The position numbers were made by a program, and so were the translations under genes. Source: an uncultured delta proteobacterium (GTDB lineage: Bacteria; Desulfobacterota; BSN033; UBA1163). From it: DNA of 64,000 nucleotides. Numbering within the stretch: the first letter of the stretch is position 1; the number at the start of each line of letters is the position of its first letter. Positions 11,651 to 29,628 of the stretch are shown in pieces. The notes beneath the pieces are model-generated. The model was not told where the DNA came from. It saw only the letters and a program-made list of their open reading frames with translations, and made no database searches. The DNA lies in the NCBI GenBank assembly GCA_963827685.1, contig CAWHBU010000005.1:288001-352000 (forward strand), written 5' to 3'.

Positions 11651-11773
11651 ATAGGATAAGTGAAGAGTTGAAGCAAGGAGTCAAATATGTTGGTTGGTAA
11701 AACAGATAGCGGATAATTAACTGAAATGTTTGGTAAGTTTTGTATTTATATCTTCTAATAACAAGGTTAACTT

Positions 11774-13967: not shown

Positions 13968-14043
13968 CGTCTAGTTCACCGGCGTTTTGCGAGGGGGACT
14001 TTGCTCTCTTGTTAAACGGTCCGGGTTGAATGGTTCGTTAGGC
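13968..14043 (-). other. Degenerate solitary attC-like site after the methyltransferase gene
   Basis: Minus strand GCCTAAC-GAACC-ATTCAACC...GGTGAAC-TAGACG just after the stop codon; the R' GTT box is missing. Confidence 0.5.
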
Positions 14044-14047
14044 AGCC

Positions 14048-14788: not shown

Positions 14789-14815
14789 TATTGATCTTTG
14801 ACCCTTTTTCTCTCT

Positions 14816-15653
14816 TTAGCTCATTGCAGGTTTAATTGCTGAGACCTTAATACTGACCACCGAGTTCGCCAAATCCTCGGCTTTTTCACGGGAAAGCTTC
14901 AAATTTTTTGCAACCTCTCTGGCTGTCGGGTCATTGACCAGGAGGTCGACAGAAAAAGTGGCCTCGCCCAAGACGTTGGTCTCCTCAAATCCCGCTGCCC
15001 GGATCGCTTCCAGGTAATCCTTTTTGCCTAGTAGCACCCGCCACACAGCCAATGTAGGCTACTACGGAATTCCTGATTTCCTCGGGCAGCTCTTTGAGCA
15101 GCACAATATCAGAGACCATCAAGCTTCCACCCGGCCTAAGGACGCGAAAGGCTTCCTGGAAGACCCTTTTCTTATTCGGGGAAAGATTGATCACGCAACT
15201 AGAGATAATGACATCCACCTGATTGTCACCCACAGGTAAGTTCTCGATCTCTCCCAGTCTGAATTCCACATTGTCATAATTGCCCTTCCGGGCATTCTCT
15301 CTGGCTCGGTCAAGCATCTCCGCAGTCATATCCACCCCGATGACTTTCCCCGTCTTGCCTACCTGGTTGGCAGCGAGAAAACAATCAAAACCCGCGCCCG
15401 AACCCAGATCGAGGACCACCTCCCCTTCCTTTAATGACGCGAGAGCTATTGGATTGCCGCATCCGAGACCCAAATTTGCTCCCTCAGGAACAGCTTTCAA
15501 TTCTTCTTCGCTGTATCCTATCTTTCTACCAATATTCTGTGCTGAATTAGGGCTCCCACAACAGGATTTCTCAGGAGCACAACACGAGCTGTCTTGCTTC
15601 GCAATTTTGCCATAGCCCTCTCTTACGACTTTTCTTATTTCTTCCTTGTCCAT
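14816..15653 (-). CDS. arsM: Arsenite S-adenosylmethyltransferase ArsM, with a frameshift near 15030
   Basis: SSCC...[29 protein letters not shown] and GCVAGA; the C-terminus ([13 protein letters not shown]...SIKVSAIKP) continues in another frame. Confidence 0.9.
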
Positions 15654-15670
15654 TTTCGGTCACCTCCATA

Positions 15671-15964
15671 TTATTTGGTAGCATCGCTTCCTATCACTTC
15701 CTTCATCATCGGACCAAGCAGCCCCTTCACCATGTCTCCGAATTCATCGGCCTTAATCAAAGTCAAGCAGCACACTTTCCCGTCCTTTTCCCAGCCAACA
15801 AGCGCCAACTTATCGCCTGTGTGGATACCGGCTTTATCTCTAACCTCTTTAGGGAGCACCATCTGCCCACGCTCATCGACGCTGACTAGCGCTTCAACCT
15901 TACAGCAACTCATTTTCCCACAGGTAGGTCCGGAGCAGGATGCTTTTCCGGGCTTTTTGACCAT
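15671..15964 (-). CDS. AbrB/SpoVT-type DNA-binding protein of the HgcAB-associated (HgcC-like) family
   Basis: CCKVEALVSVDERGQMVLPKEVR...WEKDGKVCC: AbrB core plus vicinal Cys pairs. Confidence 0.8.
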   Translation of the reverse strand: MVKKPGKASCSGPTCGKMSCCKVEALVSVDERGQMVLPKEVRDKAGIHTGDKLALVGWEKDGKVCCLTLIKADEFGDMVKGLLGPMMKEVIGSDATK

Positions 15965-16000
15965 ATTTCTCACCTCCTCCATAGTTTTCAGTTTAGTTTA

Positions 16001-16059
16001 ATTATTCAAGTAAATCAGATTATGCTGAATAATATAAACAATCAGAATTTGTTTGTCAA
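16001..16059 (-). promoter_or_regulatory. Sigma70 promoter with an overlapping palindromic operator for the hgcC-like/arsM unit
   Basis: TTGACA-17-TATATT (minus strand); palindrome ATTATTCA...TGAATAAT at 16001-16033. Confidence 0.65.
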
Positions 16060-16205
16060 GTCTTTTTTTGGAAATATCCGACTCCAGAGCAGGGGAAAGG
16101 AAAGGTATCTTTCTATATACTCAAGACTAAGTCTCAATTAAAGCTTTTTGAAATACCTTGAATCATCTCAAATTTTAGATTACTATTTTGGCGAAAGGTA
16201 ATCGG

Positions 16206-16370
16206 ATGACATTAGATAAAGAGTCTTTGACCGATCTGATCTGTAAACGCTGCGATTTCTACAAAGAATCCGAAAAGGATCTGGAATGCGGGGCCTACAA
16301 GATCCTTAAACGGCTTTTGGAAAAGAAGATCATCACCCCTGAAGAGATTTCCGATGCCCTTCGAGAATAA
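16206..16370 (+). CDS. Small Cys-containing protein (54 aa) overlapping the radical SAM gene
   Basis: ICKRCDFY...LECGAY; its 3' end overlaps the rSAM start by 17 nt. Confidence 0.7.
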   Translation: MTLDKESLTDLICKRCDFYKESEKDLECGAYKILKRLLEKKIITPEEISDALRE

Positions 16371-17521
16371 ATTCATCATCCTGACCCCTCACTCCGTTTT
16401 GAAAAACCTCGAAGAACCCTACCTCTACGATATCGAGAAAGACGACCTTTACGAACTGAACGCGGATGCCCATCAATTTCTCCTCAAAATCTGCCAGGGC
16501 ATCAATCCGCCTATCCGAAAAGAGGATGAGGAATTTATCCGATTCTGTCTCTCCGAGAATTTGATCGCTTTCTCCGAAACCCCTCTCCAGAGAAAGGTGT
16601 CTCTGAATCCTTCTCCGACCCCCTCGCTCCGTTATCTTGAGCTCCAGATTACAGACCGATGCAATCTCCAATGCCGCCACTGTTATATCGGAGAAGGTTC
16701 TCATCAGGATCTTTCTAAAAAACAGATTCAAAGAGTGTTGGAAGAATTTGAAGAGATCCAAGGGTTGAGGCTCCTCATTTCTGGAGGGGAACCTCTACTC
16801 CACCCTCATTTTTGGGAGATCAATGACATCCTGCGAAACTATGCCTTCCGATCTGTCCTCCTTTCCAATGGCACGCTGATTACTAAAGAGGTCGCCAAAA
16901 AGCTCCGCGTCCAAGAGGTCCAGATCAGTCTCGATGGAATGAAAGAGGGTCATGAATCACTTCGAGGAAAAGGCATCTTCGGAAAAAACGATGGCGGCCA
17001 TTGACCACCTGCAACAGGCTAACTTTCGGGTCTCTGTAGCCACGATGATTCATCGTAGAAATCTATCTGAGTTCGACCAGCTTGCCTATCTCCTTCAATC
17101 AAAAAATATTGAGGAGTGGAATGTTGATGTCCCTTGTTTAGAAGGGAGACTAAAGTCAAATCAGGATTTTTCGGTTTCTCCCTCGGAGGCAAGCCGGTTT
17201 CTCAGTTATGGCTTTGGAGGGGGATTTCACGGTGCAACAAAAAATTCTACTTGCGGAGCGCATCTTTGTGCTATAATTCCAAATGGGACTGTTTGTAAGT
17301 GTGGACTCTTTAGCGATGAACCCGTGGGATCGATCGAGGAGGGTCTTCGGACCTGTTGGGCACGAATTCCTCGAATTGCCTTGAAAGACCTCACCTGCAA
17401 ATGTCCTGTGACGGAAGAGTGCCGAGGGGGATGTCGGTACCGGGCGAAAATTCAAGGTGATTTATTTCAACCCGACCTCTTTCAATGTTACGCAAGGGGT
17501 GTTTTGAAAGGAGGTGAATGA
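16354..17521 (+). CDS. Radical SAM/SPASM peptide maturase with an N-terminal RRE/PqqD-like region; +1 frameshift in the A6 run at 16983-16988
   Basis: CNLQCRHC, SGGEP, SNGT and SLDG; SPASM CGA...C...CKC...CxCxxxxxCRGGC...C lies in the second frame. Confidence 0.88.
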
Positions 17522-17522
17522 C

Positions 17523-17585
17523 ATGACCATCAAGAAGGTGGCCAAAAAATTCTCCGGTCTCTGCAAATGTAAAGCATCTTGCTAA
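17523..17585 (+). CDS. Candidate RiPP precursor peptide MTIKKVAKKFSGLCKCKASC (20 aa, not in the ORF track)
   Basis: Near-perfect RBS AAGGAGGTGA inside the rSAM 3' end; basic leader plus CxCxxxC core; hairpin immediately downstream. Confidence 0.8.
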   Translation: MTIKKVAKKFSGLCKCKASC

Positions 17586-17595
17586 GCTATCAATC

Positions 17596-17624
17596 GGGCT
17601 CCTTCCCAAGAAGGGAGGGAGCCC
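17596..17624 (+). terminator. GC-rich hairpin closing the rSAM-peptide unit
   Basis: GGGCTCCTTCCC-AAGAA-GGGAGGGAGCCC; the U-tract is weak. Confidence 0.6.
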
Positions 17625-17698
17625 CTATTCAACAAGTTAAATAATCCGCCCAAAAAAGGACAGGTCCTGAGACCTGTTTTTTTATTTCGTGATGATAG

Positions 17699-17843
17699 AA
17701 GGATTCCAGGATACAAGGGGTTAAGGATTCAAGTGGTACAAATTGATGACGGAGACAACAATCTTACTGATAAAAGAATAAAAATGGTTACGAGGTCAAT
17801 AGCATTTCGCCTCAACCCTTGAATCCTCGAATCCTTGAACCCT
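17699..17843. repeat. Inverted octamer-repeat element (GGATTCAA / TTGAATCC)
   Basis: Complementary repeat arms flank a unique core. Confidence 0.55.
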
Positions 17844-17880: not shown

Positions 17881-18816
17881 ATGTATATCGGAATCGATTT
17901 TCTTATCACTTCCGAATTAAAACTCTATCTGGTGGAAGTGAATGTGGGTCTCCCCGGAGGAGCCCATGAATATCATCTTACCCATCTGGTCCATTTCGGA
18001 AAGCCCTCAGATATTTTTGGGCGGATCGAAGGGACCTCGCAAAAAGTTTACGGAAAGACTTTCAAGGATTACCTTCATTCCCTTCCCTTTATTGAAGCTC
18101 TAAAACCCTTTAAGATATGGATGGACGGAATGGGCCCCTTTCCAGAAACCTTCCATCCCGGATTGAGGCTTGAGGATAAATGGAATCAATACCAATTGCT
18201 CAAGTCCATCGCGCCCATGCCTGAGACGATGGCTTTCGACCCGGAAGACCGGGTGGAAGCTAACCGATTTATTGAGCGAACGAGGAAAGCAGTTTTGAAA
18301 CGTCGGGTTGGAAGGGGTGGAAGGGATTTGCAGGTGATCTCTGAACCGTCGTCTTTGTTGAAATCAAATCTTCTATCAAACCACTATCTCCTCCAAGAAT
18401 ATGTCGAAAGCAAGATCGACGGATATAGTTTATCCATCCGCTCGGTTGCCTTTGGCGGAGAGTTTATGTGCATGTATGCCAACCTTTCCCCAAGATCCAC
18501 CTCCAATCATGGGATATTGACCTTTGTCTCATCTGGGAATCTATTCGGACTAAACGCAATGGGGTTCAAGACTGAATCATTCAATCAGAAATCATGGGAA
18601 GCAGAGATATGGTTTGGTGAAAATGAACCTCAATACCTGAGACATAACCTATACGAAGAAGAGGTCGCCAAGGCAACCCTCATCATTCCCGAGCCTTTTT
18701 TAAGAACGATCATGGAATTATCTGTAAAGATAGAAAGACTTTATGATGGATTAGATCTTTTTGCCCTTCCAAAAGCATGCTTCGAAGAGCAACCGGGCCG
18801 TTCCCTCTCCAGATAA
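17881..18816 (+). CDS. Circularly permuted ATP-grasp-like protein
   Basis: GIDF..YLVEVN.GLPG sits at the N-terminus; DK..., PET, VLK..G.GG, LLQEYV and IRS come later. Confidence 0.7.
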   Translation: MYIGIDFLITSELKLYLVEVNVGLPGGAHEYHLTHLVHFGKPSDIFGRIEGTSQKVYGKTFKDYLHSLPFIEALKPFKIWMDGMGPFPETFHPGLRLEDKWNQYQLLKSIAPMPETMAFDPEDRVEANRFIERTRKAVLKRRVGRGGRDLQVISEPSSLLKSNLLSNHYLLQEYVESKIDGYSLSIRSVAFGGEFMCMYANLSPRSTSNHGILTFVSSGNLFGLNAMGFKTESFNQKSWEAEIWFGENEPQYLRHNLYEEEVAKATLIIPEPFLRTIMELSVKIERLYDGLDLFALPKACFEEQPGRSLSR

Positions 18817-18826
18817 TTAAAGTGAA

Positions 18827-18920
18827 CCCCGTTAGAAATTCCAGCGGGGCATTAAACCCAGCTGGAATTATTTAAAATGTAACCCCTCTGCAGAGTAGCA
18901 GGGCGTCATTTCTAACGGGG
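18827..18920. mobile_element. 94-bp MITE with 13-bp perfect TIRs and a TGAA direct repeat
   Basis: TGAA|CCCCGTTAGAAAT ... ATTTCTAACGGGG|TGAA. Confidence 0.8.
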
Positions 18921-19132
18921 TGAATTTAAAAAATATCTATGTGTATGATTTTTTTATCCTATGAAACATTATAAATTACAAGTAGTTATATAAAATAGCA
19001 ATGCCTATTACCTTATAAAATGTATATTCCTAATATACACAAAAAGTCTTTTGCCTTTTTTTTGTAAAATTTATAAGGTATATAATTTAGTATAATCAAT
19101 ATATTACAAACTTTTTGTACCCTTTCCCAGGG

Positions 19133-19149
19133 TTGGCATTGCGTATGCA
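19133..19149 (+). promoter_or_regulatory. Sigma54 (-24/-12) promoter
   Basis: TTGGCATTGCGTATGCA has GG-N10-GC spacing and follows an AT-rich stretch. Confidence 0.65.
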
Positions 19150-19206
19150 ATTACTAAGGTTGAGGTGACTCAAAAACCTCAACGGAAAAGAAAGGGGGAA
19201 TAGGCC

Positions 19207-19491
19207 ATGTTAGGAAGAAGACAAACTCTAAAGGTTGGGGTGATTGGAGCAGCGATGACACTTCTGGCGACTCCTGCATTTGCCAGGTCTATTGAATTGA
19301 AAGGAGCCGGCACTGCCCTCTGGATCTTCTTGATTATCGGTGCCATCATCGTTCTTCTCCAGTTGATCCCGGCACTGATCCTCTTCTTCAGCTTTATCGG
19401 TACCGCCACCACAGCAGCCATGAAGAAAGAGAAGAAGGTGGAGGAGGAAGTTACTCTTTCAGGTACTGAGCCTGTAGCCGTGAAGAAATAA
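19207..19491 (+). CDS. Small membrane protein with signal peptide
   Basis: RBS AAGGGGG; signal ...TPAFA; hydrophobic LWIFLIIGAIIVLLQLIPA. Confidence 0.7.
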   Translation: MLGRRQTLKVGVIGAAMTLLATPAFARSIELKGAGTALWIFLIIGAIIVLLQLIPALILFFSFIGTATTAAMKKEKKVEEEVTLSGTEPVAVKK

Positions 19492-19583
19492 GGGTGACAG
19501 AAGTTTATGGTTATGGTAAAAGGATTATATTTAGGCTGACAGTAAGATCTAATACCTGTCATCCTCAAAGAGAGGAGGGAGCA

Positions 19584-19805
19584 ATGAATATCAAATTAAG
19601 CGCCGCTAACATAGTGAGTATCATTATTCTTATGTGCATCCTGGCAGCCATGGTATCGATTGCCGTGATGCAGGTTGTACGGACTGTCGAGGATATAGGT
19701 CCCAAAATTTATGTTGTGGGAGGAGCCGTCGTTGTCGTCGGAGCGATCATTCCTATCATGTTAACCATCCTCGTTAAACATATGAAGAAAATGAATCAAG
19801 ATTAG
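19584..19805 (+). CDS. Small two-TM membrane protein
   Basis: RBS GAGGAGG; two hydrophobic helices. Confidence 0.65.
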   Translation: MNIKLSAANIVSIIILMCILAAMVSIAVMQVVRTVEDIGPKIYVVGGAVVVVGAIIPIMLTILVKHMKKMNQD

Positions 19806-20668: not shown

Positions 20669-23227
20669 ATGACACTATTATACCTCCTCAAAAACATCAC
20701 CCTCCGCCACCTTCGCCACCATAAAGGAAGAACCATTCTTTCTATTATAGGGATCGCCCTTGGAGTCGCTGTCTTTATCAGCGTCCAGACGGCCATCCAC
20801 ACCGCCATCGAATCCTTCAATGCTTCCGTGGACCATGTCTCGGGGAAAGCCAATCTCCAGGTCACCTCTTTCGGAAGAGGTTTTACGGAAAAGGTTTATC
20901 TCAAGGTAAAAAAAGTTCCCGGAATCAAAGCGGCCACACCCGTCATTCAATATGTCACCAAGATGGATGAACCCATTGGAGAACCCCTCTACCTTCTTGG
21001 GATCGACGTCTTTAGTGATCGGCCTTTTAGAGAATATCAGTTTTACGAGCCCTATGACGAGGGCCTCCTTTTTTTGAAAAGCCGTAATTCAATCGCCATC
21101 ACAGAAAAATTGGCCAATCGACATGGATTGAAAAAAGGAGAAAAAATCACCCTCATCGTGGGTTCAAAAAAAGTGACTTTCGTCATCACAAACCTTTTAA
21201 GGATGGAGGGGCCGGCCAAATCATTGGAAGGAAATTTTGGCCTCATTGACATCGCCTCTGCTCAGGAAGCCCTGGAAAAGGTAGGCCTCATCGACCGAAT
21301 TGATCTAATAGTGGACAAATCCATACCTATAGAGGGGATAGAGAGAGAATTGAGAAAGGTGATCCCCGCTGGGGTCGAAGTTCGCCGGTCCGATACCCGG
21401 AGCGGGCAGATCGAAAAGATGGTTTCTGCCTTCCACCTCAATCTCACCGCCCTCAGCTTCATCTCTTTAATTGTGGGAATGTTCTTGATCTACAATGCCA
21501 TTTCGATCTCCATCATTCAGAGGAGGAGGGAGATCGGAATTCTAAGAAGCATCGGACTCACCCGCCCTCAGGTCCTCACTCTTTTCATCGGTGAGGCAGC
21601 ATGGATCGGATGTTTGGGAAGTCTGGTTGGAATAGGAGTCGGGTTAGGATTGGCAAAGCTTATGCTCTATCTGGTCTCCAGAACGATCACCGCCCTCTAT
21701 ATCCTGGTCAAGGCAGAGCATCTCATAATCTCTCCATCCGTTTTAATGGCAGGGTTTGGGATAGGAGTGTTTGCTTCCGTCCTTTCCTCGATCGGCCCTG
21801 CAAGAGAAGCCTCCAAGATTGCACCCAAGGAGGCCTTGGCGCTTGGAACCCTTGAAACAAAAATAAAAATCCGTCTCGGCCGTTTCAGTCTCATCGGCAT
21901 GGGTCTTCTCATCCTTTCACTCATCTTTGCGCTCCAGAAGCCCATCGATCATCAGCCTATCTTCGGCTTCTTGGCTGCCCTTCTCATCCTCATTGGAGTC
22001 TCCTTCCTGATCCCTTCTGTCACCACCCTCTTGAACCGTCTCCTTGCTCCGCTTCTCCACTTCCTATTCGGATCTGAAGGAAAACTGGCAAGTCGATACA
22101 TCCATGACTCCATGGCCAGAACCGTGATCACCATCGCTGCATTGATGACCGCCCTCTCCATGCTCATCAGCATCTCCATCATGATCTTGAGCTTCCGAAA
22201 GACGGTTGACCTTTGGGTGGAACAATCGATCAATGGGGATGTGTTCATCTTCCCCGGCTCCTATTCCATCACGGGTTATTCCGCTCTCCTCCCTCTTGAG
22301 GTCTCAAGGGGACTGCCTTTTCTTCCCGGAGTCAAAGCCGTGGATTCCTTCAGGGCCTTGGAGGTTGAATATCAAGGCCAGCCTGCTCTGATTGCCTCTG
22401 TGAATGGAGAGGTTTTTCTCAACATGAAGGTTATTCGTTTCACCCGAGGGAATCCTCGGACTATTCTCCGACAGTTCGCCGCTGGCCAAGCCATTCTCGT
22501 CACGGAGAGTTTCTCTCTCAGACATCAAGTCAAGGCCGGAGACCGGATTAAACTCAACACACCGCAGGGTGAAAAGGAATTTCTCATTTCGGGAGTCTTC
22601 TACGATTATTCCTCGGATTGGGGAATGGTCTTATTGGAGAAAAAACTCTTTCAATCACTGTGGAAGGATGAAACGCTTCATAGCGCTGGCATTTATTTAA
22701 AGGAAGGGTTTTCCCCTGAGAAATTTAAGGAGATCATTCGAGAGAGATATTCAAAACCTTATCGGCTCTTTGTGGTCTCCCATCGTGAATTGCGAAATGA
22801 GGTTCTGAAGATCTTTGACCAGACTTTTTCCATCACCTATGCCCTTGAATTCATCGCCATCATCGTGGCCATTCTTGGAATCATCAACTCCTTGAATGCC
22901 CTGATCATCGAAAGGCAGCGGGATATCGGGATCGTCCGGGCCGTGGGCGCATTCCGGAGGCAAATTGAGAAGACCATCCTGATCGAGGCAGGGATGATCG
23001 GTTTCTTCAGCCATATCTTCGGCCTCCTCTGTGGTTTTCTTCTCTCTATTCTTCTCATCTACGTCATCAATAAGCAATCCTTTGGATGGACCATTCAGTT
23101 CTCCATTCCGCTTTGGAGTCTTATAGAGTCCTGGTTAGTGGTGATGCTCACTTCCATCGGCGCGGGCTTCATCCCAGCCCGTCGGGCTGCAAAAATGAAT
23201 ATGGTGGAATCGTTAAGGATGGAATAA
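20669..23227 (+). CDS. FtsX/MacB-like ABC permease (tandem domains)
   Basis: Two FtsX repeats (RRREIGILRSIG; RQRDIGIVRAVG). Confidence 0.92.
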   Translation: MTLLYLLKNITLRHLRHHKGRTILSIIGIALGVAVFISVQTAIHTAIESFNASVDHVSGKANLQVTSFGRGFTEKVYLKVKKVPGIKAATPVIQYVTKMDEPIGEPLYLLGIDVFSDRPFREYQFYEPYDEGLLFLKSRNSIAITEKLANRHGLKKGEKITLIVGSKKVTFVITNLLRMEGPAKSLEGNFGLIDIASAQEALEKVGLIDRIDLIVDKSIPIEGIERELRKVIPAGVEVRRSDTRSGQIEKMVSAFHLNLTALSFISLIVGMFLIYNAISISIIQRRREIGILRSIGLTRPQVLTLFIGEAAWIGCLGSLVGIGVGLGLAKLMLYLVSRTITALYILVKAEHLIISPSVLMAGFGIGVFASVLSSIGPAREASKIAPKEALALGTLETKIKIRLGRFSLIGMGLLILSLIFALQKPIDHQPIFGFLAALLILIGVSFLIPSVTTLLNRLLAPLLHFLFGSEGKLASRYIHDSMARTVITIAALMTALSMLISISIMILSFRKTVDLWVEQSINGDVFIFPGSYSITGYSALLPLEVSRGLPFLPGVKAVDSFRALEVEYQGQPALIASVNGEVFLNMKVIRFTRGNPRTILRQFAAGQAILVTESFSLRHQVKAGDRIKLNTPQGEKEFLISGVFYDYSSDWGMVLLEKKLFQSLWKDETLHSAGIYLKEGFSPEKFKEIIRERYSKPYRLFVVSHRELRNEVLKIFDQTFSITYALEFIAIIVAILGIINSLNALIIERQRDIGIVRAVGAFRRQIEKTILIEAGMIGFFSHIFGLLCGFLLSILLIYVINKQSFGWTIQFSIPLWSLIESWLVVMLTSIGAGFIPARRAAKMNMVESLRME

Positions 23228-23297
23228 GAATAAGTTAAGAGGTAAGAGTTAAAAGGTAAGAGTTACGAGTTATGGATATGGAGTATGTGCTGTCCTC

Positions 23298-23460
23298 TGC
23301 CCTTCCTCAGCCGTAAAATTGGTGAGAAAGTCTGACGCCATTCCACCAAAGGACTTCAAAGAATTGCACCGAGAGATTTTGAAGGAAAGAAAACCCGCAG
23401 CATAACACAACGCTCACCGGGGGCCGGATTGATCGGCATCCGCTGGAAGCGTTGTTACCC
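23298..23460. repeat. ~160-bp direct repeat, copy 1 (gene remnant plus attC); copy 2 at 27342-27506
   Basis: Near-identical TGCCCTTCCTCAGCCGTAAA...CACCGGGGGCCGGATTGATCGGCATCCG...GTTA in both places. Confidence 0.9.
23400..23460 (-). other. Integron attC site
   Basis: Minus strand GGGTAAC-AACGC-TTCCAGCG...GGTGAG-CGTTGT-GTTATGC, 5 nt after the higA stop. Confidence 0.75.
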
Positions 23461-23465
23461 CGTCC

Positions 23466-23750
23466 CTATGCCGCCTTTTTGAGAGTGACATGCATGCCAG
23501 CTCTCGTCGCAAGGGTAATAATCATTTCGAGGCTAAATCTCTCCCATTTGCCTCTGATCAAGTCTGAAACCCTGGATTGACTAACGCCGAGGATCTCCGC
23601 AGCCTTGGCCTGCGTTAGCCTCTTGGCTTTGATGAATTTCCGGAGATCGGCCATAAGATCGGCACGCATCTGAAGAATTGCGGCTTCATCCGGAGAATAC
23701 CCGAGGTCAATGAATACGTTTCCAGAAGATTTAACAGCAACCTCGCTCAT
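23466..23750 (-). CDS. higA: HigA-like XRE/HTH antitoxin
   Basis: SSGNVFIDLG and TQAKAAEILGVSQSRVSDL; overlaps the toxin stop. Confidence 0.88.
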   Translation of the reverse strand: MSEVAVKSSGNVFIDLGYSPDEAAILQMRADLMADLRKFIKAKRLTQAKAAEILGVSQSRVSDLIRGKWERFSLEMIITLATRAGMHVTLKKAA

Positions 23751-24073
23751 AAATTACCTCCAATCTGCCTGTACCGCTGGCGAGCCAAATCAATATCATG
23801 CCGGCTCGTTTTTCGAGTCTTCTTTTGAAATGCGTGAAGCACATAAACCGCTTCGCGAAGCTTAGCAACATAGATTACTCGCCACTCGCCCAAGACGTGG
23901 ATACGGATTTCCTTCACGCCTGGGCCGATCACCTGCATTGGTTTCCAATCGCTTGGTTCAAGTCCGTTTTGGACCGCACGGAGTTCGAAGCCTGCGGCAC
24001 GGCGAGCTTCATCGGGAAAGTTCCGAAGATCATCGAGGCTCGATCCCACGAAGTTCAACGGCTTCATAGTCAC
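23747..24073 (-). CDS. higB: HigB/RelE-like toxin (Gp49/DUF891 type)
   Basis: PSDWKPM..IGPGVKEIRI...RVIY...VLHAFQKKT; toxin-first gene order. Confidence 0.88.
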   Translation of the reverse strand: MTMKPLNFVGSSLDDLRNFPDEARRAAGFELRAVQNGLEPSDWKPMQVIGPGVKEIRIHVLGEWRVIYVAKLREAVYVLHAFQKKTRKTSRHDIDLARQRYRQIGGNL

Positions 24074-24142
24074 CAGAATATTATATAAGTTTTTATATAT
24101 TTAGCAAGTCCAATGATTAAGGTCCTTATCGTGCGGGGTAAC

Positions 24143-25945
24143 GAGCCTGTAGAAAAAGTCGGTTTTTTAAAAACCGCTTCTTCTGCTGGATCAAAAATAG
24201 GAAATTATTTTCTGTCATCAAAAGTTTTTCCGATTCTTGGCGAAATGTTCGTCTTTTCATGATATTTTTCTTACCACAGTATCATATCACCTAATCCGAC
24301 TCCGTTCACGCAAGCTCCAGACCGTATCGATGCACTTTAAATAGATTGTGCACCGCACAGTAGAGTAACCACTGGGTGTTCACTTTTCGTTTCCCTCGAA
24401 GGGTAAATCGGTTCAACCCTAAGGTAGAGCAAATATTCCCAAATACAGGCTCTGCCGTTCCGAGTCTCCTGTCGTAGATGAGTCTGCCTTTTATCGAATC
24501 TATTTTGCGCTTCATCTTCTGGGTAAACGTCTCCGGCTTCGACTCCGCACTCCCCTGAAAGAAGTACACCTGTCTTGCCTCCGTTCTGTCCGGATGTCTC
24601 AGGCATCTCTCCCGTAGTCCGCAGATCCGACAGTCGGTCTTTCTCCCATGAAACTTGATGGCCCGCTGACCGTTGACCACCACATTCCCCCCATTGCGAT
24701 ACAGGCGCTTACCCCCAGGACAGATGCAATGAGTCTTGTCTTCGCTGATCGTAAAATCCCTGTGTGGCCTGTATAAGTCGGCCACTCCGTAGTACTCAGC
24801 CCTCTCCTTTCTGAATTGCTCTTTGTATTTGTCAACGTCCGAAAACCGCGGGTCCCGCTTCCGAAACTGCGTGTCTGCAATATAGGCATCGATCCCTTGC
24901 CCCATGACCTCCTTCATATTCGCCTCGGTATGAAACCCACTGTCCGCTGTGAGCTTTGCTTTCTCGAAGATATCCTGTTTAATGCCGACGGCCTCGAAGT
25001 TCTCCCTCGTCCCCTCGAGCATAGGAAGAAGAAGATCATGTTCCTGCGCTGCTCCAAATGCCTCCGCATGTACAACCACCTGGTGCTTTCCGTCTACCAC
25101 CGCTACCCCATCGTAACCCTGGATCACCCCGTGCGAGGTCTTCATCTTGGCGCTCTCATTGTCCGTGATGTTGCTCTTCACGGGCTTACCGCTCTTGCCA
25201 GGTTTGTCCTCGTTTTCTCGTAGCCATGCCTTTATCTTCTTTACCTTCCCCCGAAGGGTCTCCACATACTGCTCTTCTTGCTCCATCACTCCCCGGTCCG
25301 CCTCGGTAACATCCACCTCCCGATGCCGCTTGACAATCTGCCTGATCACCTTCTCCATCTTCTCTCTTTTCTTCTCCAGTTCTTTCTTCGTCCCGCTCCA
25401 TTCTTTCGAGGCGTTTGAAGGCAGCTTGCAGCCATCCACTGCAAACATCTCTTTCCCGATCAGCCCCATCTCATCGCAGATCAACAGTATCTCTAGAAAC
25501 AGATGGATGATCTCCTGGCCCGAGGTCGAAATGAAGTCTGAGATCGTCGTAAAATGCGGCTGCGTATCCGCCGAGAGCGCCATGAAGATAACATTCTCTT
25601 GACAACACTGCGCTATCTTTCGGCTCGAGGTGATTCCTCGTGAGTACACATACAGGATAATCTTTAATAGGACGGCGGGATCGTATGCCGGCGCTCCCAT
25701 CTCGTCGTTTCGGTACCGGCAATCAAAAATCGACAGGTCTATCTCGTTGTCAATGAGGTAATGAAGGCTATACTCAAACGTCCCGGGTAAGATCTGTCGG
25801 TCAAAGTGGATCGGTATGAACTTTCCCTGTGAATAATCAAACTCTTTGTATCTCGCCATCCAGTCCCTCCTAAGCGGTCTCCGCTCTCTTTGCCGCTACT
25901 GATATGGCGATTTTATCATGCTTTTAAGACTTTTTCTACAGCCTC
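24143..25945 (-). mobile_element. IS1182-family insertion sequence (1803 bp) inserted in an attC site
   Basis: TIRs GAGCCTGTAGAAAAAGTC / GACTTTTTCTACAGCCTC (17/18); AAC duplicated at 24140-24142 and 25946-25948. Confidence 0.9.
24306..25859 (-). CDS. IS1182-family DDE transposase
   Basis: GAPAYDP, SSRKI, PHFTTISDF, VDG, ADSGF and EPVFG motifs. Confidence 0.92.
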   Translation of the reverse strand: MARYKEFDYSQGKFIPIHFDRQILPGTFEYSLHYLIDNEIDLSIFDCRYRNDEMGAPAYDPAVLLKIILYVYSRGITSSRKIAQCCQENVIFMALSADTQPHFTTISDFISTSGQEIIHLFLEILLICDEMGLIGKEMFAVDGCKLPSNASKEWSGTKKELEKKREKMEKVIRQIVKRHREVDVTEADRGVMEQEEQYVETLRGKVKKIKAWLRENEDKPGKSGKPVKSNITDNESAKMKTSHGVIQGYDGVAVVDGKHQVVVHAEAFGAAQEHDLLLPMLEGTRENFEAVGIKQDIFEKAKLTADSGFHTEANMKEVMGQGIDAYIADTQFRKRDPRFSDVDKYKEQFRKERAEYYGVADLYRPHRDFTISEDKTHCICPGGKRLYRNGGNVVVNGQRAIKFHGRKTDCRICGLRERCLRHPDRTEARQVYFFQGSAESKPETFTQKMKRKIDSIKGRLIYDRRLGTAEPVFGNICSTLGLNRFTLRGKRKVNTQWLLYCAVHNLFKVHRYGLELA

Positions 25946-26006
25946 AACGCCAGCATAAGGGGCGCGGCGGCTTTTTGCTTTGTCCTTCTTTAGCGAATGG
26001 TTAGCT
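25946..26006 (-). other. attC site (remainder; its GTT end lies at 24136-24142 across the IS)
   Basis: Reconstituted minus strand CAGCTAAC-CATTC-GCTAAAG...CTTATGCTGGC-GTTACCC. Confidence 0.7.
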
Positions 26007-26007
26007 G

Positions 26008-26547
26008 TCAGTCGCTCAACCACACTCTTATAAAACGCTTCGTATTATTATCCCAATAGAAAAGGGATGCCGCGCTTTCAAACCTATAGTAAAGGATGGA
26101 GGGGGTCTTTATTGTGATCTTTGACCTCGGTTCCGTTTTTCCAACGCAGTCATTCCCAACCTCTATACAGAGATACTGGTGCGTGCCTGGTGCGAGTACT
26201 TTTAACCCCATCCCTAAGTCAACATTGGGGTACTTCGGTCCCCAATCAATTACGTCCAGGGTTACCCACCTGAAACCCCCCTTGCCATCGGACAACCATA
26301 CCAAAAGGCCTTGGCCACTGAACTTTGTGCTCTTAAACAAGAATGCCTCATCTTGCACCCCGTCACCGTTGAAATCGGCGGTGGCCCAGGCCAATTTCGT
26401 TGGTGACTTGCTCCGCTCTTGATCAGCTAATTCATTTTCAGTCGGATAGCGCCAGCCATCAGGAGGTCTGTCGGCTCCAACCGTATAATCTGGAGACCAC
26501 AGGAACAGGGCGCAGCAGACTGTGAGTGATAGAATAAATCCTTTCAT
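26008..26547 (-). CDS. Secreted hypothetical protein (cassette gene) with an FG-GAP-like motif
   Basis: Signal peptide; ADFNGDGVQD. Confidence 0.75.
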   Translation of the reverse strand: MKGFILSLTVCCALFLWSPDYTVGADRPPDGWRYPTENELADQERSKSPTKLAWATADFNGDGVQDEAFLFKSTKFSGQGLLVWLSDGKGGFRWVTLDVIDWGPKYPNVDLGMGLKVLAPGTHQYLCIEVGNDCVGKTEPRSKITIKTPSILYYRFESAASLFYWDNNTKRFIRVWLSD

Positions 26548-26561
26548 AAATGATAGCTAAC

Positions 26562-26721
26562 GAGCCTGTAGAAAAACCCCCTCACTGCGATTAAGGGATG
26601 GTTTTCTGGGGGTCTCTTGACCCCTCCTCAGCATGAGATCGTCGCATACAGAGCATCCCGAAGGGTCGTATCTTCTTCCAACTAACCGCATTCGTGCGAG
26701 ATTGACTTTCTCTACAGCCTA
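26562..26721. mobile_element. 160-bp MITE with IS1182-like ends, inserted in an attC
   Basis: TAAC|GAGCCTGTAGAAAAA...GACTTTCTCTACAGCCTA|AAC. Confidence 0.85.
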
Positions 26722-26779
26722 AACATCGCAGCTCCCCGGCCGCCAAGTTACTGGCGGTTGGGTGTAGCCGCAGGTAAGA
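26722..26779 (-). other. Degenerate attC site (GTT end at 26555-26561 across the MITE)
   Basis: Central hairpin CCGCCA-AGTTAC-TGGCGG; lies 10 nt after the stop of the upstream cassette gene. Confidence 0.55.
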
Positions 26780-26789
26780 AGAAGTTTTT

Positions 26790-27266
26790 CTAATCACGTT
26801 GCAGTGAGCGAAGAAATTTAAGGATATCACGAATTATTTCCTTAAACGTATACCTGTCAGTAGCGCTATCTACACATTCTTCCGCATGATTATTTGTAAT
26901 ATCAGTTTCTGACAGTTCGAATTTACCTTGTTCTATTTGACTCAAAAGGTCCTTGGCTTTCTCTACATCCTTTTCGTCAACCTGAATCGCAACAGGACCA
27001 ACTATTGGGTTAAACCCGGTACCTAAGCGGCCTCCTGCAAATAAGTCCTGCAACCCTTCGCCTTTAACATAATATTTGATACCTTCAGATTCGAAAAGTG
27101 ACTTGGCAAATGCAATATAAGCAGGATCGCCTGTTTCATACACAGTCACAAATCTAATAAATTCAGACTCTATTCCAGGAGGAGACTCATTAACAAGGGC
27201 CACATTGCACGTTGAACATACAGTAATTCCCTCGATATATTCAGCACCGCAATTTGGACAAAACAC
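26790..27266 (-). CDS. Zinc-ribbon plus DUF2007-like protein (cassette gene)
   Basis: CPNC...CSTC, AKSLFESEGI and VDEKDVEKAKDLL; RBS AGGAG. Confidence 0.8.
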   Translation of the reverse strand: MFCPNCGAEYIEGITVCSTCNVALVNESPPGIESEFIRFVTVYETGDPAYIAFAKSLFESEGIKYYVKGEGLQDLFAGGRLGTGFNPIVGPVAIQVDEKDVEKAKDLLSQIEQGKFELSETDITNNHAEECVDSATDRYTFKEIIRDILKFLRSLQRD

Positions 27267-27286
27267 TTATATCTCCTAATTCTAAC

Positions 27287-27356
27287 GAGCCTGTAGAAAA
27301 AACCCCTCAATACGATTGAGGGATGGTTTTCGGGGGTCGGTTGCCCTTCCTCAGCC
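27287..27356. mobile_element. Truncated copy of the IS1182-like MITE (left end only)
   Basis: CTAAC|GAGCCTGTAGAAAAAACCCCTCA...GGGATGGTTTTC, matching 26562 onward. Confidence 0.75.
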
Positions 27357-27449
27357 GTAAAGTTGGTGAGAAAGTCTGACGCCATTCCTCCAAAAGACTT
27401 TAAAGAATTGCACCAAGAGATTTTGAAGGAAAGAAAATCCGCAGCATGA

Positions 27450-27506
27450 CGCTAACGCTCACCGGGGGCCGGATTGATCGGCATCCGGTGGCGCCGCTTG
27501 TTAGCG
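27450..27506 (-). other. Integron attC site
   Basis: Minus strand CGCTAAC-AAGCG-GCGCCACCGG...CCGGTGAGC-GTTAGCG. Confidence 0.75.
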
Positions 27507-27597
27507 AATGGTTACCTATCTCCCCGTTCGCTCATTATCTTCTCTTGTCGTCCCTTTGTTCACGCAGTACGTAAATGGAGCCCTCATAGCCATAGAG

Positions 27598-27873
27598 TTA
27601 GTGAAAGAAAGCTGTAATCACAAACATAATGGCACATAACAGAAAGTTGAGGTGTGCCAGAAGAAAGAGCTTAAACCGAGCACTTAGTTTCTCATGGTTA
27701 TTTCTTAGATGCCTATAATATCGATAGACGTTTAGAGTTCCTGCGAACAATACCATTCGGAAGTCCGGTCGAGCCTTGATTTCTCTTTGCGCAAGAATTG
27801 CCGTTATTCCAAAAAAGGCCATCGTAAATACCAGATATATTCCAATCATGAAGTCCCAAGTGAGCATATCCAA
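27598..27873 (-). CDS. Small two-TM membrane protein (cassette gene)
   Basis: Two hydrophobic segments; bounded by attC-like sites. Confidence 0.65.
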   Translation of the reverse strand: MDMLTWDFMIGIYLVFTMAFFGITAILAQREIKARPDFRMVLFAGTLNVYRYYRHLRNNHEKLSARFKLFLLAHLNFLLCAIMFVITAFFH

Positions 27874-27886
27874 ATTTCTTATATCC

Positions 27887-27944
27887 CGCTAATGATCTGA
27901 ATCAGCGGGGCATATTACGCATCTGCCGAATTGTTTTGTCAGCC
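27887..27944 (-). other. Degenerate attC site
   Basis: Minus strand GGCTGAC-AAAAC-AATTCGGC...GCTGATT-CAGATC-ATTAGCG, 4 nt after the upstream stop. Confidence 0.5.
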
Positions 27945-27948
27945 ACAC

Positions 27949-29346
27949 CTAAACACTTTGTTTCCTTCTTTCGCCGTGTACATAATCTGGAATTCTACCG
28001 GTTCTTATGGCATCTTCGAGCCACATTGCCTTCTGTAACAATAGTTTGTTACCAGTCTTTTTAAAGATTTCTATAGATTGACTTACAAGTGCTAAGGCCT
28101 CATCTTTCTCTCCGAAGAATCTTATTTGGTTCGCAAGGTTATGAAGTACGTTTGCTACACCTTCTTCATCAGCAATTTGAGCGTAAATGTTCTTGGCCAG
28201 AAGAAGGCTTCTCTTGCAAAGGTCTCTTTCATACTCATATCTGTCAGAAACCTTCATCTGGCAATATGCCAGGGCACGCTGACCCGCTGCATTGCCGATT
28301 AAGAGTAGTACGCCTGCCAACATCTGAAGGTCATTACTTTTAGCTGTTAAATTAAGAGCTGCGTCAAAGGCAGAATTATACTCCTCTTGGGTACGTCTTA
28401 AACGACCAAGAGTGCTTTGCCGTTGTGCCTCAGTCACAAAAGGCAAACCACATAGATTGGATGCCATGATGGAGAAGAACATTCTCATATCTTCATTAAT
28501 ATAAGCAAAAGACAAAAAGGATGCTTTTTGAGCAAGGAAGAAAGCTTTAAAACGTTGACTCCCAATCGATTCAGTTAGGGCGATGCCTGATTTACAAAGC
28601 TCTATCATATCTGTAGGGGAGTCCTCTAAAGGATCAAACAGATCCAAGAGTCCGATCAACGCATTAAGTTGAGCCACGGTATCCTTACTTGCATAGTAAA
28701 TAGTCTTAAGCTCTTTCTTTGCATTGCCGGTGGCAAAGACCTGCCGTAATTCAATTACGCGCTTATTATCGTCACTATCACCAGCCTTTGATTCCATAAA
28801 AGGTGCAGCAAGTAGATGTTTCTGAATCGGACCCTCCTTCTTTTGCGTTTGTTTTAAATAACTCAAGATTTCGTCTAGTTTCTTATCTATACGCGTAACG
28901 TGTAGCTGTGGAAATGCTTCATATAAATGGGGATTTTTGTAAAGTTCATTGGCAAGAAATGTAGATTCCAGGTGATTTGCGGCAAACCCAAGGTCAGATC
29001 CAATCTTGCACATTTGGGCAACTACGTTGCTACTCAACTTTCTGGGAGTGATAAACGTCCACCGTTCCACTTCGTACTTGTCGGCATCTCGGAGTTTTGC
29101 TGCTTTTTGCATATCGCTCGTTATTTTCTCCAAGTAGTCCTTATCCGTCTTTTTCTCGGGCTTAATGGGGCAGTAAATGGCGAATATCGTTTTTTCTGAC
29201 CGCAAATATCCGTCATTTCCCTCATCACTCCGAGTTCCGTCAATTATTTGAAAATCCTCACCATAGATACAAGTAAGAATCAAATTAGACAATCGTGTGA
29301 ATTCTTGTGGATTGGTTATCAGGGCGATTTGGTCTTCCAGATACAT
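27949..29346 (-). CDS. Putative PD-(D/E)XK nuclease fused to a helical/TPR-like domain (cassette gene)
   Basis: FTRL...DEGNDGY...AIYCP..PE N-domain; C-terminal VANVLHNLA...ALALVSQSIEIF; low GC. Confidence 0.65.
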   Translation of the reverse strand: MYLEDQIALITNPQEFTRLSNLILTCIYGEDFQIIDGTRSDEGNDGYLRSEKTIFAIYCPIKPEKKTDKDYLEKITSDMQKAAKLRDADKYEVERWTFITPRKLSSNVVAQMCKIGSDLGFAANHLESTFLANELYKNPHLYEAFPQLHVTRIDKKLDEILSYLKQTQKKEGPIQKHLLAAPFMESKAGDSDDNKRVIELRQVFATGNAKKELKTIYYASKDTVAQLNALIGLLDLFDPLEDSPTDMIELCKSGIALTESIGSQRFKAFFLAQKASFLSFAYINEDMRMFFSIMASNLCGLPFVTEAQRQSTLGRLRRTQEEYNSAFDAALNLTAKSNDLQMLAGVLLLIGNAAGQRALAYCQMKVSDRYEYERDLCKRSLLLAKNIYAQIADEEGVANVLHNLANQIRFFGEKDEALALVSQSIEIFKKTGNKLLLQKAMWLEDAIRTGRIPDYVHGERRKQSV

Positions 29347-29360
29347 GTTAAATATTTTAT

Positions 29361-29367
29361 GGCTAAC
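29361..29367 (-). other. GTTRRRY core site (GTTAGCC) heading the cassette array; possible attI/attG junction
   Basis: 14 nt upstream of the first cassette ATG; no attC palindrome upstream of it. Confidence 0.5.
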
Positions 29368-29628
29368 AATTAATAGACCAAGTTCCAATTTGTTTCTAAT
29401 TGGCCCTTCTACCTGTACTTTTTACCACCTTTTTATTTTGGCGTCTATAGAATTCTTGATTCTATTTCGTTTTTTCCATTACAATAGCATAAAATTTAAA
29501 GCAACTTCTTTTGACAATTTTTATTGGGTGCCAGGAGTTTTCTTTCCGACAAATTGTTTCCCCTCACCCCATCCCTCTCCCCTGGGGGGAGAGGGGAAGG
29601 TGACAGAGGAGGGGTGAGGGGATGGAGG

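What the first reader, a model, noticed from the sequence alone, without database searches (positions are those of the whole stretch)
24136..27356. An IS1182 element and its MITEs insert at the same nucleotide of integron attC sites
Seen: three insertions begin immediately after (C/G)TAAC with the same end GAGCCTGTAGAAAAA, in the same orientation. They are the full IS (24143-25945), a 160-bp MITE (26562-26721) and a truncated MITE (from 27287). The two complete ones are flanked by an AAC duplication, and removing them rebuilds attC palindromes. The AAC is the complement of the conserved GTT of the R' box. Established: attC targeting is described for IS1111-attC (IS110 family) elements and group IIC-attC introns. 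I do not know of it for IS1182 DDE elements. Inference: an attC-specific IS1182 subgroup that recognises the folded attC and may freeze or remodel cassette arrays.
Basis: partly seen in the sequence, partly recalled or inferred. Interest (0 to 1): 0.8.

Follow-up and report, generated by a model that had tools for sequence, protein, structure and literature searches.

The report
IS1182-like elements that target integron attC
A jumping gene and its miniature derivatives insert, always in the same direction, at the exact three bases where integron gene cassettes are joined, and relatives in many environmental bacteria do the same, which adds a new kind of transposon that homes in on integrons.

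Summary
Window 24143-25945 is a 1803-bp IS with an IS1182-like DDE transposase. 26562-26721 is a 160-bp MITE, and 27287-~27355 is a truncated MITE. All three start after TAAC, and the two complete ones carry an AAC/GTT 3-bp duplication.

The pattern is general:
- 28 of 31 complete elements (14 in this genome, 17 in other genomes) have a perfect 3-bp duplication, GTT in 27.
- 84 of 92 terminal-repeat occurrences in 80 metagenome contigs abut GTT, AAC, AAT or ATT.

I built a covariance model from the flanks. It finds arrays of like sites next to full integron integrase genes in three other genomes. There the IS sits inside the cassette array, directly 3' of a model hit, with the transposase gene pointing the same way as the cassettes. 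A 44%-identical relative lies about 6 kb from intI in a cultured Pseudoalteromonas.

The target is therefore the R' GTT at the 3' end of attC. The known attC-targeting elements (IS1111-attC, group IIC-attC introns) insert near the 5' end and antisense. Nine full-text searches found no report of this for IS1182.

Within the window itself the two interrupted attC sites are weak or decayed. Whether the transposase reads folded or duplex DNA is not settled.

The parts
24143..25945 (-). Complete IS (1803 bp), IS1182-like. IRL (transposase-proximal by convention) is 25928-25945 and IRR is 24143-24160.
   Evidence: sequence; terminal-repeat matches; 5 full copies at 99-100% identity in the genome.
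24306..25859 (-). Transposase, 517 aa.
   Evidence: Pfam DDE_Tnp_1_6 (80 bits), DUF772 (53 bits), DDE_Tnp_1. NCBIfam IS1182 equivalog at 255 bits, just under its cut-off of 270.
24140..24142 (.). AAC copy of the 3-bp target duplication on the next-cassette side. With 24136-24139 it reads GTTACCC on the cassette strand, the R' box.
25946..26006 (-). Decayed attC of cassette ORF 26008-26547. Its last three bases (GTT on the minus strand, 25946-25948) are the other copy of the duplication and abut IRL.
   Evidence: model R1 at 12.4 bits, E 0.15, ending exactly at the IS; no significant fold; intact canonical relatives of this attC type in G018, G006 and G031.
26008..26547 (-). Cassette ORF, 179 aa, no family match.
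26562..26721 (-). 160-bp MITE in the same orientation as the IS. It shares only the terminal repeats with the IS. AAC is duplicated at 26559-26561 and 26722-26724.
   Evidence: three other full-length copies at 79-86% identity and one partial copy in the genome.
26722..26790 (-). attC-like imperfect hairpin downstream of ORF 26790-27266. It ends in the GTT that abuts the MITE.
   Evidence: -12.6 kcal/mol, z -2.1. No R1 hit.
26790..27266 (-). Cassette ORF, 158 aa, DUF2007.
27287..27355 (-). Truncated MITE (IRR-side 69 bp only). It abuts AAC at 27284-27286, which is the GTT 18 nt upstream of the start codon of ORF 26790-27266.
27454..27506 (-). Uninterrupted attC.
   Evidence: R1 at 23.9 bits; fold z -4.4.
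27891..27944 (-). Uninterrupted attC (R' reads ATT).
   Evidence: R1 at 27.9 bits.
23409..23460 (-). Uninterrupted attC, the last of the array.
   Evidence: R1 at 21.6 bits; fold z -3.1.
23466..24073 (-). Two-gene cassette downstream of the IS: a Gp49-like protein and an HTH_37 protein (toxin-antitoxin-like pair).

Best explanation
The window holds a short integron cassette array without an integrase (about 23300-29400, cassettes on the minus strand). A divergent IS1182-family insertion sequence and non-autonomous MITEs that share its terminal repeats have colonised it.

The DDE transposase inserts these elements at one position of attC sites. That position is the GTT core of the R' box at the 3' end of attC, where cassettes are joined. 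Insertion makes a 3-bp staggered cut that duplicates GTT. It always occurs in one orientation, so the transposase gene points the same way as the cassette genes.

Shown:
- the position
- the duplication
- the orientation
- the attC identity of the targets
- the spread of the behaviour across a clade down to 44% protein identity

Inferred:
- The transposase, not IntI, does the insertion.
- It recognises the L'-R' half of attC (consensus CCGSTKA, 7 bases, C, GTT, AG) either as duplex or as a folded hairpin. Hairpin recognition is described for IS1272 of the same family.
- The upstream attC keeps its GTT, so the element becomes the leading part of the next cassette and could travel with it when IntI moves cassettes.
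- A hairpin plus T-run overlapping IRR may stop read-through into downstream cassettes.
For: 1. Position and duplication.
- 28 of 31 complete elements have a perfect 3-bp duplication, GTT in 27 and ATT in 1.
- 21 of 21 transposase-proximal ends in other genomes follow GTT. 21 of 22 distal ends follow AAC.
- In metagenome contigs the counts are 41 GTT, 37 AAC, 5 AAT and 1 ATT of 92.

2. attC identity.
- Model R1 was built from 17 flanks.
- It finds same-strand arrays next to full intI genes (TIGR02249 at 403-447 bits) in L062, L063 and L064.
- In L062 and L063 four elements sit directly 3' of a hit.
- In metagenome loci not used for the model, 22 of 38 scorable GTT junctions have an R1 hit ending at the terminal repeat (21) or 3 nt away (1). 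The whole search gave only 82 hits in 373 kb.

3. Orientation.
- In tnp-oriented loci, 21 neighbouring non-junction attC hits are on the tnp strand and 1 non-mirror hit is on the other.
- 6 of 6 elements in four complete integrons point away from intI.
- Distal flanks often read GTTAG, then a ribosome-binding site, then ATG.

4. Specificity beyond a short motif.
- An L' box is conserved at -18 to -12. C is at -4 (84%), A at +4 (82%) and G at +5 (72%).
- The genome has 825 CGTTAG and 4609 CGTTA sites but only 33 R1 hits.

5. Independence from IntI.
- G001 has 7 copies that are 99.94-100% identical at 7 different attC sites, and only a truncated intI.
- This genome has 5 copies at 99-100% identity and only a truncated intI.
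- The ATT/ATT duplication of IS_C1 co-varies on both sides.

6. Family context. IS1272 (IS1182 family) targets hairpins (PMC4923244, PMC5678879, passages).
Against: - R1 is my own model, trained on the insertion flanks. It is not the IntegronFinder model. It is tuned to short (50-65 nt) attC sites and misses many: 16 of 38 scorable metagenome junctions had no hit.
- The two interrupted sites in the window are weak: 12.4 bits with no fold, and a fold with no hit.
- One full copy, IS_C1, lies at a site with no detectable attC (ATT duplication). No R1 hit on contig C1 appears and no anchored hairpin was found. So the local motif alone can sometimes suffice.
- 3 of 31 duplications are imperfect.
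- 8 of 92 metagenome terminal-repeat matches abut other triplets. Some are probably chance matches to the 17 specified bases.
- No orthologous empty site was found.
- No experiment was done. Transposase action, folded versus duplex recognition, retained attC function and hitch-hiking are all inferences.
Confidence: 0.85

Rival explanations
1. The elements recognise only a short duplex motif (about C-GTT-AG). They land in attC sites because that motif is the R' consensus. attC structure plays no part.
For: The bases next to the cut are the most conserved: C at -4 in 84%, A at +4 in 82%, G at +5 in 72%. IS_C1 sits at C-ATT-AG with no detectable attC. Duplex sequence differences could by themselves explain why R' is hit and R'' is not: C precedes GTT at R', whereas TT precedes it on the mirror side in the R1 consensus.
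Against: The genome holds 825 CGTTAG and 4609 CGTTA sites against 33 model hits. Even so, most insertions are at attC-like sites. A second conserved block, the L' box, sits at a fixed distance of 12-18 nt from the cut. 22 of 38 independent junctions carry a full-length attC model hit ending at the element.
Confidence: 0.1
2. The elements are captured by the integron integrase like cassettes. A circular form recombines at G|TT, which would also leave GTT on both sides.
For: GTT on both sides of an insert at the cassette junction is also what IntI-mediated cassette insertion produces (established knowledge of integron recombination). Four of five other host genomes searched have a full intI.
Against: - Seven near-identical copies lie at seven sites in a genome of two large contigs that has only a truncated intI. 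This genome is similar.
- The elements carry terminal inverted repeats and a DDE transposase, and the MITEs share only those repeats.
- At the ATT target both sides read ATT. Exchange at G|TT with an element-borne GTT would be expected to give ATT on one side and GTT on the other (inference).
Confidence: 0.03
3. Insertion is unspecific. Copies survive only in attC sites because those are neutral.
For: Cassette arrays tolerate insertions. Cury et al. 2016 report an IS in 23% of complete integrons and 12% of CALIN (PMC4889954, passage).
Against: Selection cannot produce the same nucleotide position, the same 3-bp duplication and a single orientation across about 100 independent insertions.
Confidence: 0.02

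Closest known systems
IS1111-attC group (ISPa21, ISPst6, ISKpn4; IS1111/IS110-type DEDD transposases)
   Same: Insertion sequences that form a clade associated with attC sites and insert at one defined place and in one orientation (PMC3001079 and PMC11187229, passages).
   Different: Those elements use a DEDD transposase guided by a seekRNA (PMC11187229). They insert near the 5' end of attC and antisense to the cassettes (PMC3001079, passage). Here the transposase is a DDE IS1182-like protein. Insertion is at the 3' R' GTT with a 3-bp duplication, sense to the cassettes, and there are MITE derivatives. I could not read Tetu & Holmes 2008 (not held). I did not request Post & Hall 2009.
Group IIC-attC introns (e.g. 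S.ma.I2)
   Same: A monophyletic subgroup of a mobile-element family specialised on attC (PMC3001079, abstract and passages).
   Different: These are retroelements that insert into the bottom strand, opposite to cassette transcription. They have no terminal repeats, no duplication and no DDE transposase.
IS1272 / TnSha1 (IS1182 family, staphylococci)
   Same: Same IS family. The target is chosen by a hairpin or inverted-repeat structure (PMC4923244, PMC5678879, passages). Both papers quote Siguier et al. 2015 as saying that some IS1182 members target palindromes.
   Different: IS1272 shows no primary-sequence specificity and no duplication, deletes part or all of the hairpin, and inserts in both orientations. 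Here one nucleotide position of one class of hairpin is used, with a 3-bp duplication, a single orientation and the hairpin kept.
Classical IS1182-family members on plasmids (annotated ISPa22-, ISBusp4-, ISPmo1-like)
   Same: Same Pfam architecture. A Sulfurimonas member shares a CTGTAG core in its terminal repeats.
   Different: Only about 24-28% identical to this transposase. The one whose ends I inspected (L192) shows no GTT/AAC flanks.
MITEs associated with integrons (MITE-flanked integrons, integron mobilisation units)
   Same: Small non-autonomous elements with terminal repeats found at integrons (PMC3575428, search listing only).
   Different: As far as I recall, those bracket whole integrons and are not attC-specific. 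Here the MITEs sit inside arrays at the R' GTT.

Membership tests
IS1182 family | DDE transposase with DUF772 N-terminal and DDE_Tnp_1_6 C-terminal Pfam domains | tested here: met
   PF05598 at 53 bits, PF13751 at 80 bits, PF01609 at 40 bits.
IS1182 family | Score over the NCBIfam equivalog cut-off (NF033551, 270 bits) | tested here: not met
   255 bits over positions 34-486 of 488, just under the cut-off. The next family, IS5_4, scores 35 bits. The protein is therefore a divergent IS1182-like one. It is about 25% identical to annotated IS1182 transposases.
   one 517-aa ORF, 18-bp repeats matching at 17 of 18, 3-bp duplication.
Integron attC site (the target) | R''(RYYYAAC)-L''...L'-R'(GTTRRRY) imperfect palindrome of about 55-140 nt | tested here: met
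   Alignment A1 consensus. Reconstituted sites inspected. Weak for the two interrupted sites in the window.
Integron attC site (the target) | Arrays on one strand, between short co-oriented ORFs, starting beside a divergent intI | tested here: met
   met in L062, L063, L064 and Pseudoalteromonas W01. The window itself has the array but no intI. Only a truncated intI exists elsewhere in the genome, so the window array is an integrase-less cluster of attC sites (CALIN).
Integron attC site (the target) | Passes the IntegronFinder attC covariance model | not testable with these tools
   That model is not available here. I used a model of my own (R1).
IS1111-attC group | DEDD (IS110/IS1111-type) transposase; insertion near the 5' end of attC, antisense | tested here: not met
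   (DDE IS1182-like). (3' end, sense). Family features taken from PMC3001079 and PMC11187229 passages.
Group IIC-attC introns | Group II ribozyme plus reverse transcriptase ORF | tested here: not met
   the only ORF is a DDE transposase. I did not run an Rfam search.
MITE (non-autonomous derivative) | Short, non-coding, same terminal repeats and same duplication as an autonomous element in the genome, several copies | tested here: met
   158-160 bp family with 5 complete copies. There are also IS deletion derivatives: two of 304 bp, one of 405 bp and one of 586 bp.

The most novel reading that the evidence does not exclude
A DDE transposase lineage has converged on the integron integrase's own substrate. 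It reads the folded attC (or its L'-R' half-site) and cuts around the same GTT at which IntI exchanges strands. The upstream attC stays usable, and the IS or MITE becomes the head of the next cassette. IntI can then excise, capture and spread it between integrons, so this would be a transposon that uses integrons as its vehicle. By seeding identical repeats in many attC sites, it would also break large integrons into the scattered integrase-less arrays seen in this genome.
Probability: 0.3. Interest if true: 0.85.

Novelty: new variant of a known kind. Interest (0 to 1): 0.72.

Why it matters
attC sites were known to be targeted by two kinds of mobile element, IS1111-attC and group IIC-attC introns. 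This adds a third, mechanistically unrelated kind: a classical DDE transposon with MITEs. It hits the opposite end of attC, at the cassette junction, in the sense orientation.

It is common:
- At least 120 protein clusters are over 80% identical to this transposase in public metagenomes.
- It occurs in Thermodesulfobacteriota and Nitrospirota genomes from metagenomes and in a cultured Pseudoalteromonas. One 85%-identical protein is labelled Dehalococcoidia.

Practical consequences:
- It gives a concrete case for studying how a DDE transposase reads a structured recombination site.
- It matters for integron annotation, because interrupted attC sites and IS-containing cassettes will be mis-called.
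- It offers a testable route by which arrays are silenced, fused, scattered or mobilised.

In this genome roughly 18 element ends abut attC-type flanks, against about 27 uninterrupted model hits. This ratio is rough because the model is insensitive.

Tried and rejected
- A crude pattern-plus-fold attC finder of my own gave 135 scattered hits over the genome, dominated by ordinary palindromes. I dropped it as unspecific.
- BLAST of the flanks against the genome showed that the attC sites are too diverse in sequence to be found that way. Only one subfamily recurred.
- The test of anchored hairpin energy against random GTTA sites was significant (Mann-Whitney p 2.6e-5; 6 of 31 below the control 5th percentile). 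It is a poor measure because longer spans always win, so I do not lean on it.
- RNAalifold on A1 recovered only the L-box stem (6 pairs). I supplied the structure by hand.
- I looked for an orthologous empty site with the cassette 25946-26560 in 60 relatives. Only the attC part matched, in 3 genomes, and no empty orthologue was found.
- I considered whether 27287-27453 is one complete variant MITE. I rejected this. The 113-bp part 27341-27453 recurs only once, at 23298-23406 in this window, each time after a near-identical attC. It is not a genome-wide repeat.
- Inverted-repeat search on a P. aeruginosa plasmid IS1182 (L191) gave no clear ends.
- Literature: nine full-text searches found no paper linking IS1182-type elements or MITEs to attC targeting. 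A 2025 Xanthomonas integron paper cites only the two IS1111 papers for attC targeting (PMC12444791, passage). ISfinder and TnPedia could not be consulted, and subscription papers are not in the library, so a prior description cannot be excluded. I did not ask for any supplementary files.
Full report
WHAT IS IN THE WINDOW. Reading 23800-27700 confirms the finding's coordinates.
- An 1803-bp element lies at 24143-25945. It has 18-bp terminal inverted repeats (17 of 18 matching) and one 517-aa ORF on the minus strand (24306-25859).
- The ORF carries DUF772 and DDE_Tnp_1_6. It scores 255 bits against the NCBIfam IS1182 equivalog, just under the cut-off of 270. I therefore call it IS1182-like.
- AAC lies immediately outside both ends (24140-24142 and 25946-25948).
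- A 160-bp non-coding element with the same ends lies at 26562-26721, again between two AAC triplets.
- A third copy of the same end starts at 27287 after AAC. Its similarity to the 160-bp family stops near 27355.
- All three lie in one orientation.
- The surrounding ORFs (23466-23750, 23747-24073, 26008-26547, 26790-27266, 27598-27873) are short and all on the minus strand. They include a toxin-antitoxin-like pair.
- No integrase lies in the window. The neighbours are an FtsX/MacB-type permease and a CrtC-like protein.

THE PATTERN IS GENOME-WIDE.
- The genome (5.2 Mb, 14 contigs) has five full copies at 99-100% identity, several internally deleted derivatives (304, 405 and 586 bp), and a 158-160-bp MITE family.
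- I listed every match to the 15-base end with at most 2 mismatches. The end far from the transposase start is preceded by (C/T)TAAC. The end next to the transposase start is preceded, read outward-in, by ...CGTT.
- Of 14 complete elements, 11 have a perfect 3-bp duplication (10 GTT, 1 ATT). Three differ at one base.
- By the usual convention, IRL is the transposase-proximal end. On the cassette strand the arrangement is: attC body, GTT, IRL, tnp, IRR, GTT, then A(G)..., then the next cassette.

THE PATTERN HOLDS IN OTHER ORGANISMS.
- A scan of one genome per species found 22 loci encoding relatives (65-91% identical over the full length). They lie in Thermodesulfobacteriota/'delta proteobacterium', Nitrospirae/Thermodesulfovibrionia and Desulfobacteraceae genomes from metagenomes.
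- All 21 proximal ends follow GTT. 21 of 22 distal ends follow AAC. All 17 complete elements there have a GTT duplication.
Of the 92 with at least 8 flanking bases, 41 abut GTT, 37 AAC, 5 AAT, 1 ATT and 8 something else.
- The interiors behind these ends are very varied. They include transposases 57-95% identical to the window's and many short non-coding elements.
- A protein search returned at least 120 clusters over 80% identical. None has a specific name.
- In the plasmid/chromid collection the nearest relatives are 44% identical, in two Pseudoalteromonas chromids. Annotated IS1182 transposases are only about 24-28% identical.
- The P. piscicida copy has ends beginning GAGGCTGTAGAA, a GTT duplication and an attC-like flank.

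THE TARGETS ARE attC SITES.
- The flanks on the IRL side look like textbook attC sites. They have an R'' of the RYYYAAC type 50-110 nt upstream, an L''/L' stem with an extra base on the 5' arm, and GTT at the end.
- I aligned 17 short ones (A1), wrote the R and L pairings by hand, and built covariance model R1. This is not IntegronFinder's model, and it was trained on the flanks themselves. The test is therefore whether it finds integron arrays elsewhere.
- It does. Four of five other IS-bearing genomes have a full integron integrase (TIGR02249 at 403-447 bits, cut-off 265).
- In L062, intI lies at 2379-3317 on the minus strand. On the plus strand there are 9 hits. Two are followed at the next base by an IS (4126-4176|4177 and 9226-9285|9286). 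Seven more run from 11460 to 17717, six of them 350-750 bp apart.
- In L063, intI lies at 18135-19067 on the plus strand. On the minus strand there are 8 hits. Two abut elements (14774-14829 beside 12964-14773, and 4730-4787 beside 3341-4729).
- In L064, intI lies at 18683-19633 on the plus strand. There are 11 minus-strand hits, and an IS at 2966-4798 further down the array. That IS's own long attC is missed by the model.
- Two of these junction hits were training sequences (L039, L042). The others were not.
- In Pseudoalteromonas sp. NC201, intI (100077-101009, minus) lies 6.3 kb from the co-oriented IS homologue (107304-108698, plus), with model hits on the plus strand beyond it.
- In the metagenome loci, none of which was used for training, 22 of 38 scorable GTT junctions have a hit that ends at the terminal repeat (21) or 3 nt before it (L078). 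The search gave only 82 hits in 373 kb on both strands.
- In this genome the model finds 33 hits at E of 1 or less. They are clustered in about ten small same-strand arrays, nearly all with IS or MITE copies.

THE WINDOW'S OWN SITES ARE THE WEAK EXAMPLES.
- With filters off over 23200-29600, the model gives three clear uninterrupted sites: 27891-27944 (27.9 bits), 27454-27506 (23.9 bits) and 23409-23460 (21.6 bits).
- The fourth-best hit, 25946-26006 (12.4 bits, E 0.15), ends exactly at the IS. There is no hit for the MITE flank.
- The IS-side site does not fold better than shuffles (z +0.76). The MITE-side site does so modestly (z -2.1).
- The IS-side site has intact relatives in three related genomes. 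Each is a canonical attC, followed by GTTAG and a ribosome-binding site plus ATG. The window copy is therefore a decayed member of a common attC type, which is also the target in L037, L073 and L078.

ORIENTATION AND WHICH END OF attC.
- In loci oriented with tnp on the plus strand, 21 neighbouring non-junction attC hits are on the plus strand. Only one non-mirror hit (15 bits) is on the minus strand.
- All 6 elements in the four complete integrons point away from intI.
- Insertion is therefore at R', the 3' end of attC, and sense to the cassettes.
- The passages I read state that IS1111-attC elements and group IIC-attC introns insert near the 5' end and antisense (PMC3001079).

WHAT IS RECOGNISED.
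- The logo of 70 IRL-side and 72 IRR-side flanks shows CCG(C/G)T(G/T)A at -18 to -12, C at -4 (84%), GTT, then A (82%) and G (72%). The triplet itself was partly fixed by how I sorted the metagenome ends.
- This is the L'-spacer-R' half of attC.
- The genome has 825 CGTTAG sites, so the short motif alone does not explain the concentration in attC. However, one copy (IS_C1) sits at C-ATT-AG with no detectable attC.
- The mirror R'' side differs in duplex sequence: TT rather than xC precedes GTT, and there is an extra base in the L box. Duplex recognition could therefore explain the single orientation as well as hairpin recognition could.
- IS1272 of the same family chooses hairpins (PMC4923244, PMC5678879). 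That makes structural recognition plausible but not shown.

WHO DOES THE INSERTION.
- GTT on both sides would also result from IntI-mediated capture.
- Against that, G001 (two large contigs) has seven copies 99.94-100% identical at seven attC sites and only a truncated intI. This genome is alike.
- The MITEs share only the terminal repeats. At the ATT target both sides read ATT.

LIKELY CONSEQUENCES (inference).
- The upstream attC keeps its GTT and gains GAGG/GAGC from IRL, which is close to the RRRY of R'.
- The distal GTT has no attC body. The element therefore becomes the head of the next cassette and might move with it.
- Both the IS and the MITEs carry a hairpin followed by a T-run that overlaps IRR, on the cassette strand. 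This could stop read-through.
- Identical copies in many attC sites offer substrates for rearrangement, as Cury et al. 2016 proposed for integrase-less arrays (PMC4889954, passage).

NOVELTY.
- Nine full-text searches found nothing linking IS1182-type elements or MITEs with attC targeting.
- I could not consult ISfinder/TnPedia. Tetu & Holmes 2008 was not held, I did not request Post & Hall 2009, and I know Siguier et al. 2015 only through citing papers.
- I rate it a new variant of a known kind. attC-targeting elements and hairpin-targeting IS1182 members are both known. The new features are their combination, the R' position, the sense orientation, the 3-bp duplication and the MITEs.

Noticed in passing
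window 23298-23460 and 27341-27506: A unit of one attC plus the following 113 bp is present twice in the array (94% identity over 109 bp), and nowhere else in the genome. At the second copy it is fused to the truncated MITE. This suggests a deletion that removed the MITE's other half together with an attC.
   Followed up: partly
G000:C3:782919-783275 (locus L024) and G001:C1:720662-721045 (L058): This genome and its close relative G001 both have only the C-terminal part of an integron integrase (model positions about 190-315, 191 bits). Both nevertheless have many scattered attC arrays. The same truncation in both suggests an old loss.
   Followed up: no
L078:12906-12988: One metagenome junction reads attC...GTT GTT | terminal repeat, with the model hit ending 3 nt before the element. 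This may be a footprint of an earlier excision followed by re-insertion.
   Followed up: no
window 24160-24176, 26578-26598, 27302-27324 (minus strand): The IS and the MITEs each have a terminator-like hairpin whose T-run is part of the IRR terminal repeat. It is conserved in position although the stems differ in sequence.
   Followed up: partly
G000:C2:594504-594583; also C2:421299-421370, C2:980587-980658, C3:1074655-1074728: The flank of one 304-bp derivative is the end of another repeated element, 72-74 bp and 100% identical at four places. A second mobile element therefore lies in or next to these arrays.
   Followed up: no
L072:5424-8187: Three IRL-type ends lie in a row, each after an attC-like flank and each followed by a similar short sequence and then a cassette-sized ORF. 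This looks like another small element family that uses the same end. Its other end did not match the exact pattern.
   Followed up: partly
window 23466-24073: The cassette just downstream of the IS encodes a Gp49-like (HigB-type) protein and an HTH_37 protein. This is the kind of toxin-antitoxin cassette common in chromosomal integrons.
   Followed up: no
G000:C1:62730-64531: One full IS copy has an ATT duplication at a site where neither the model nor an anchored fold finds an attC. It is a probable off-target insertion at a C-ATT-AG motif.
   Followed up: partly
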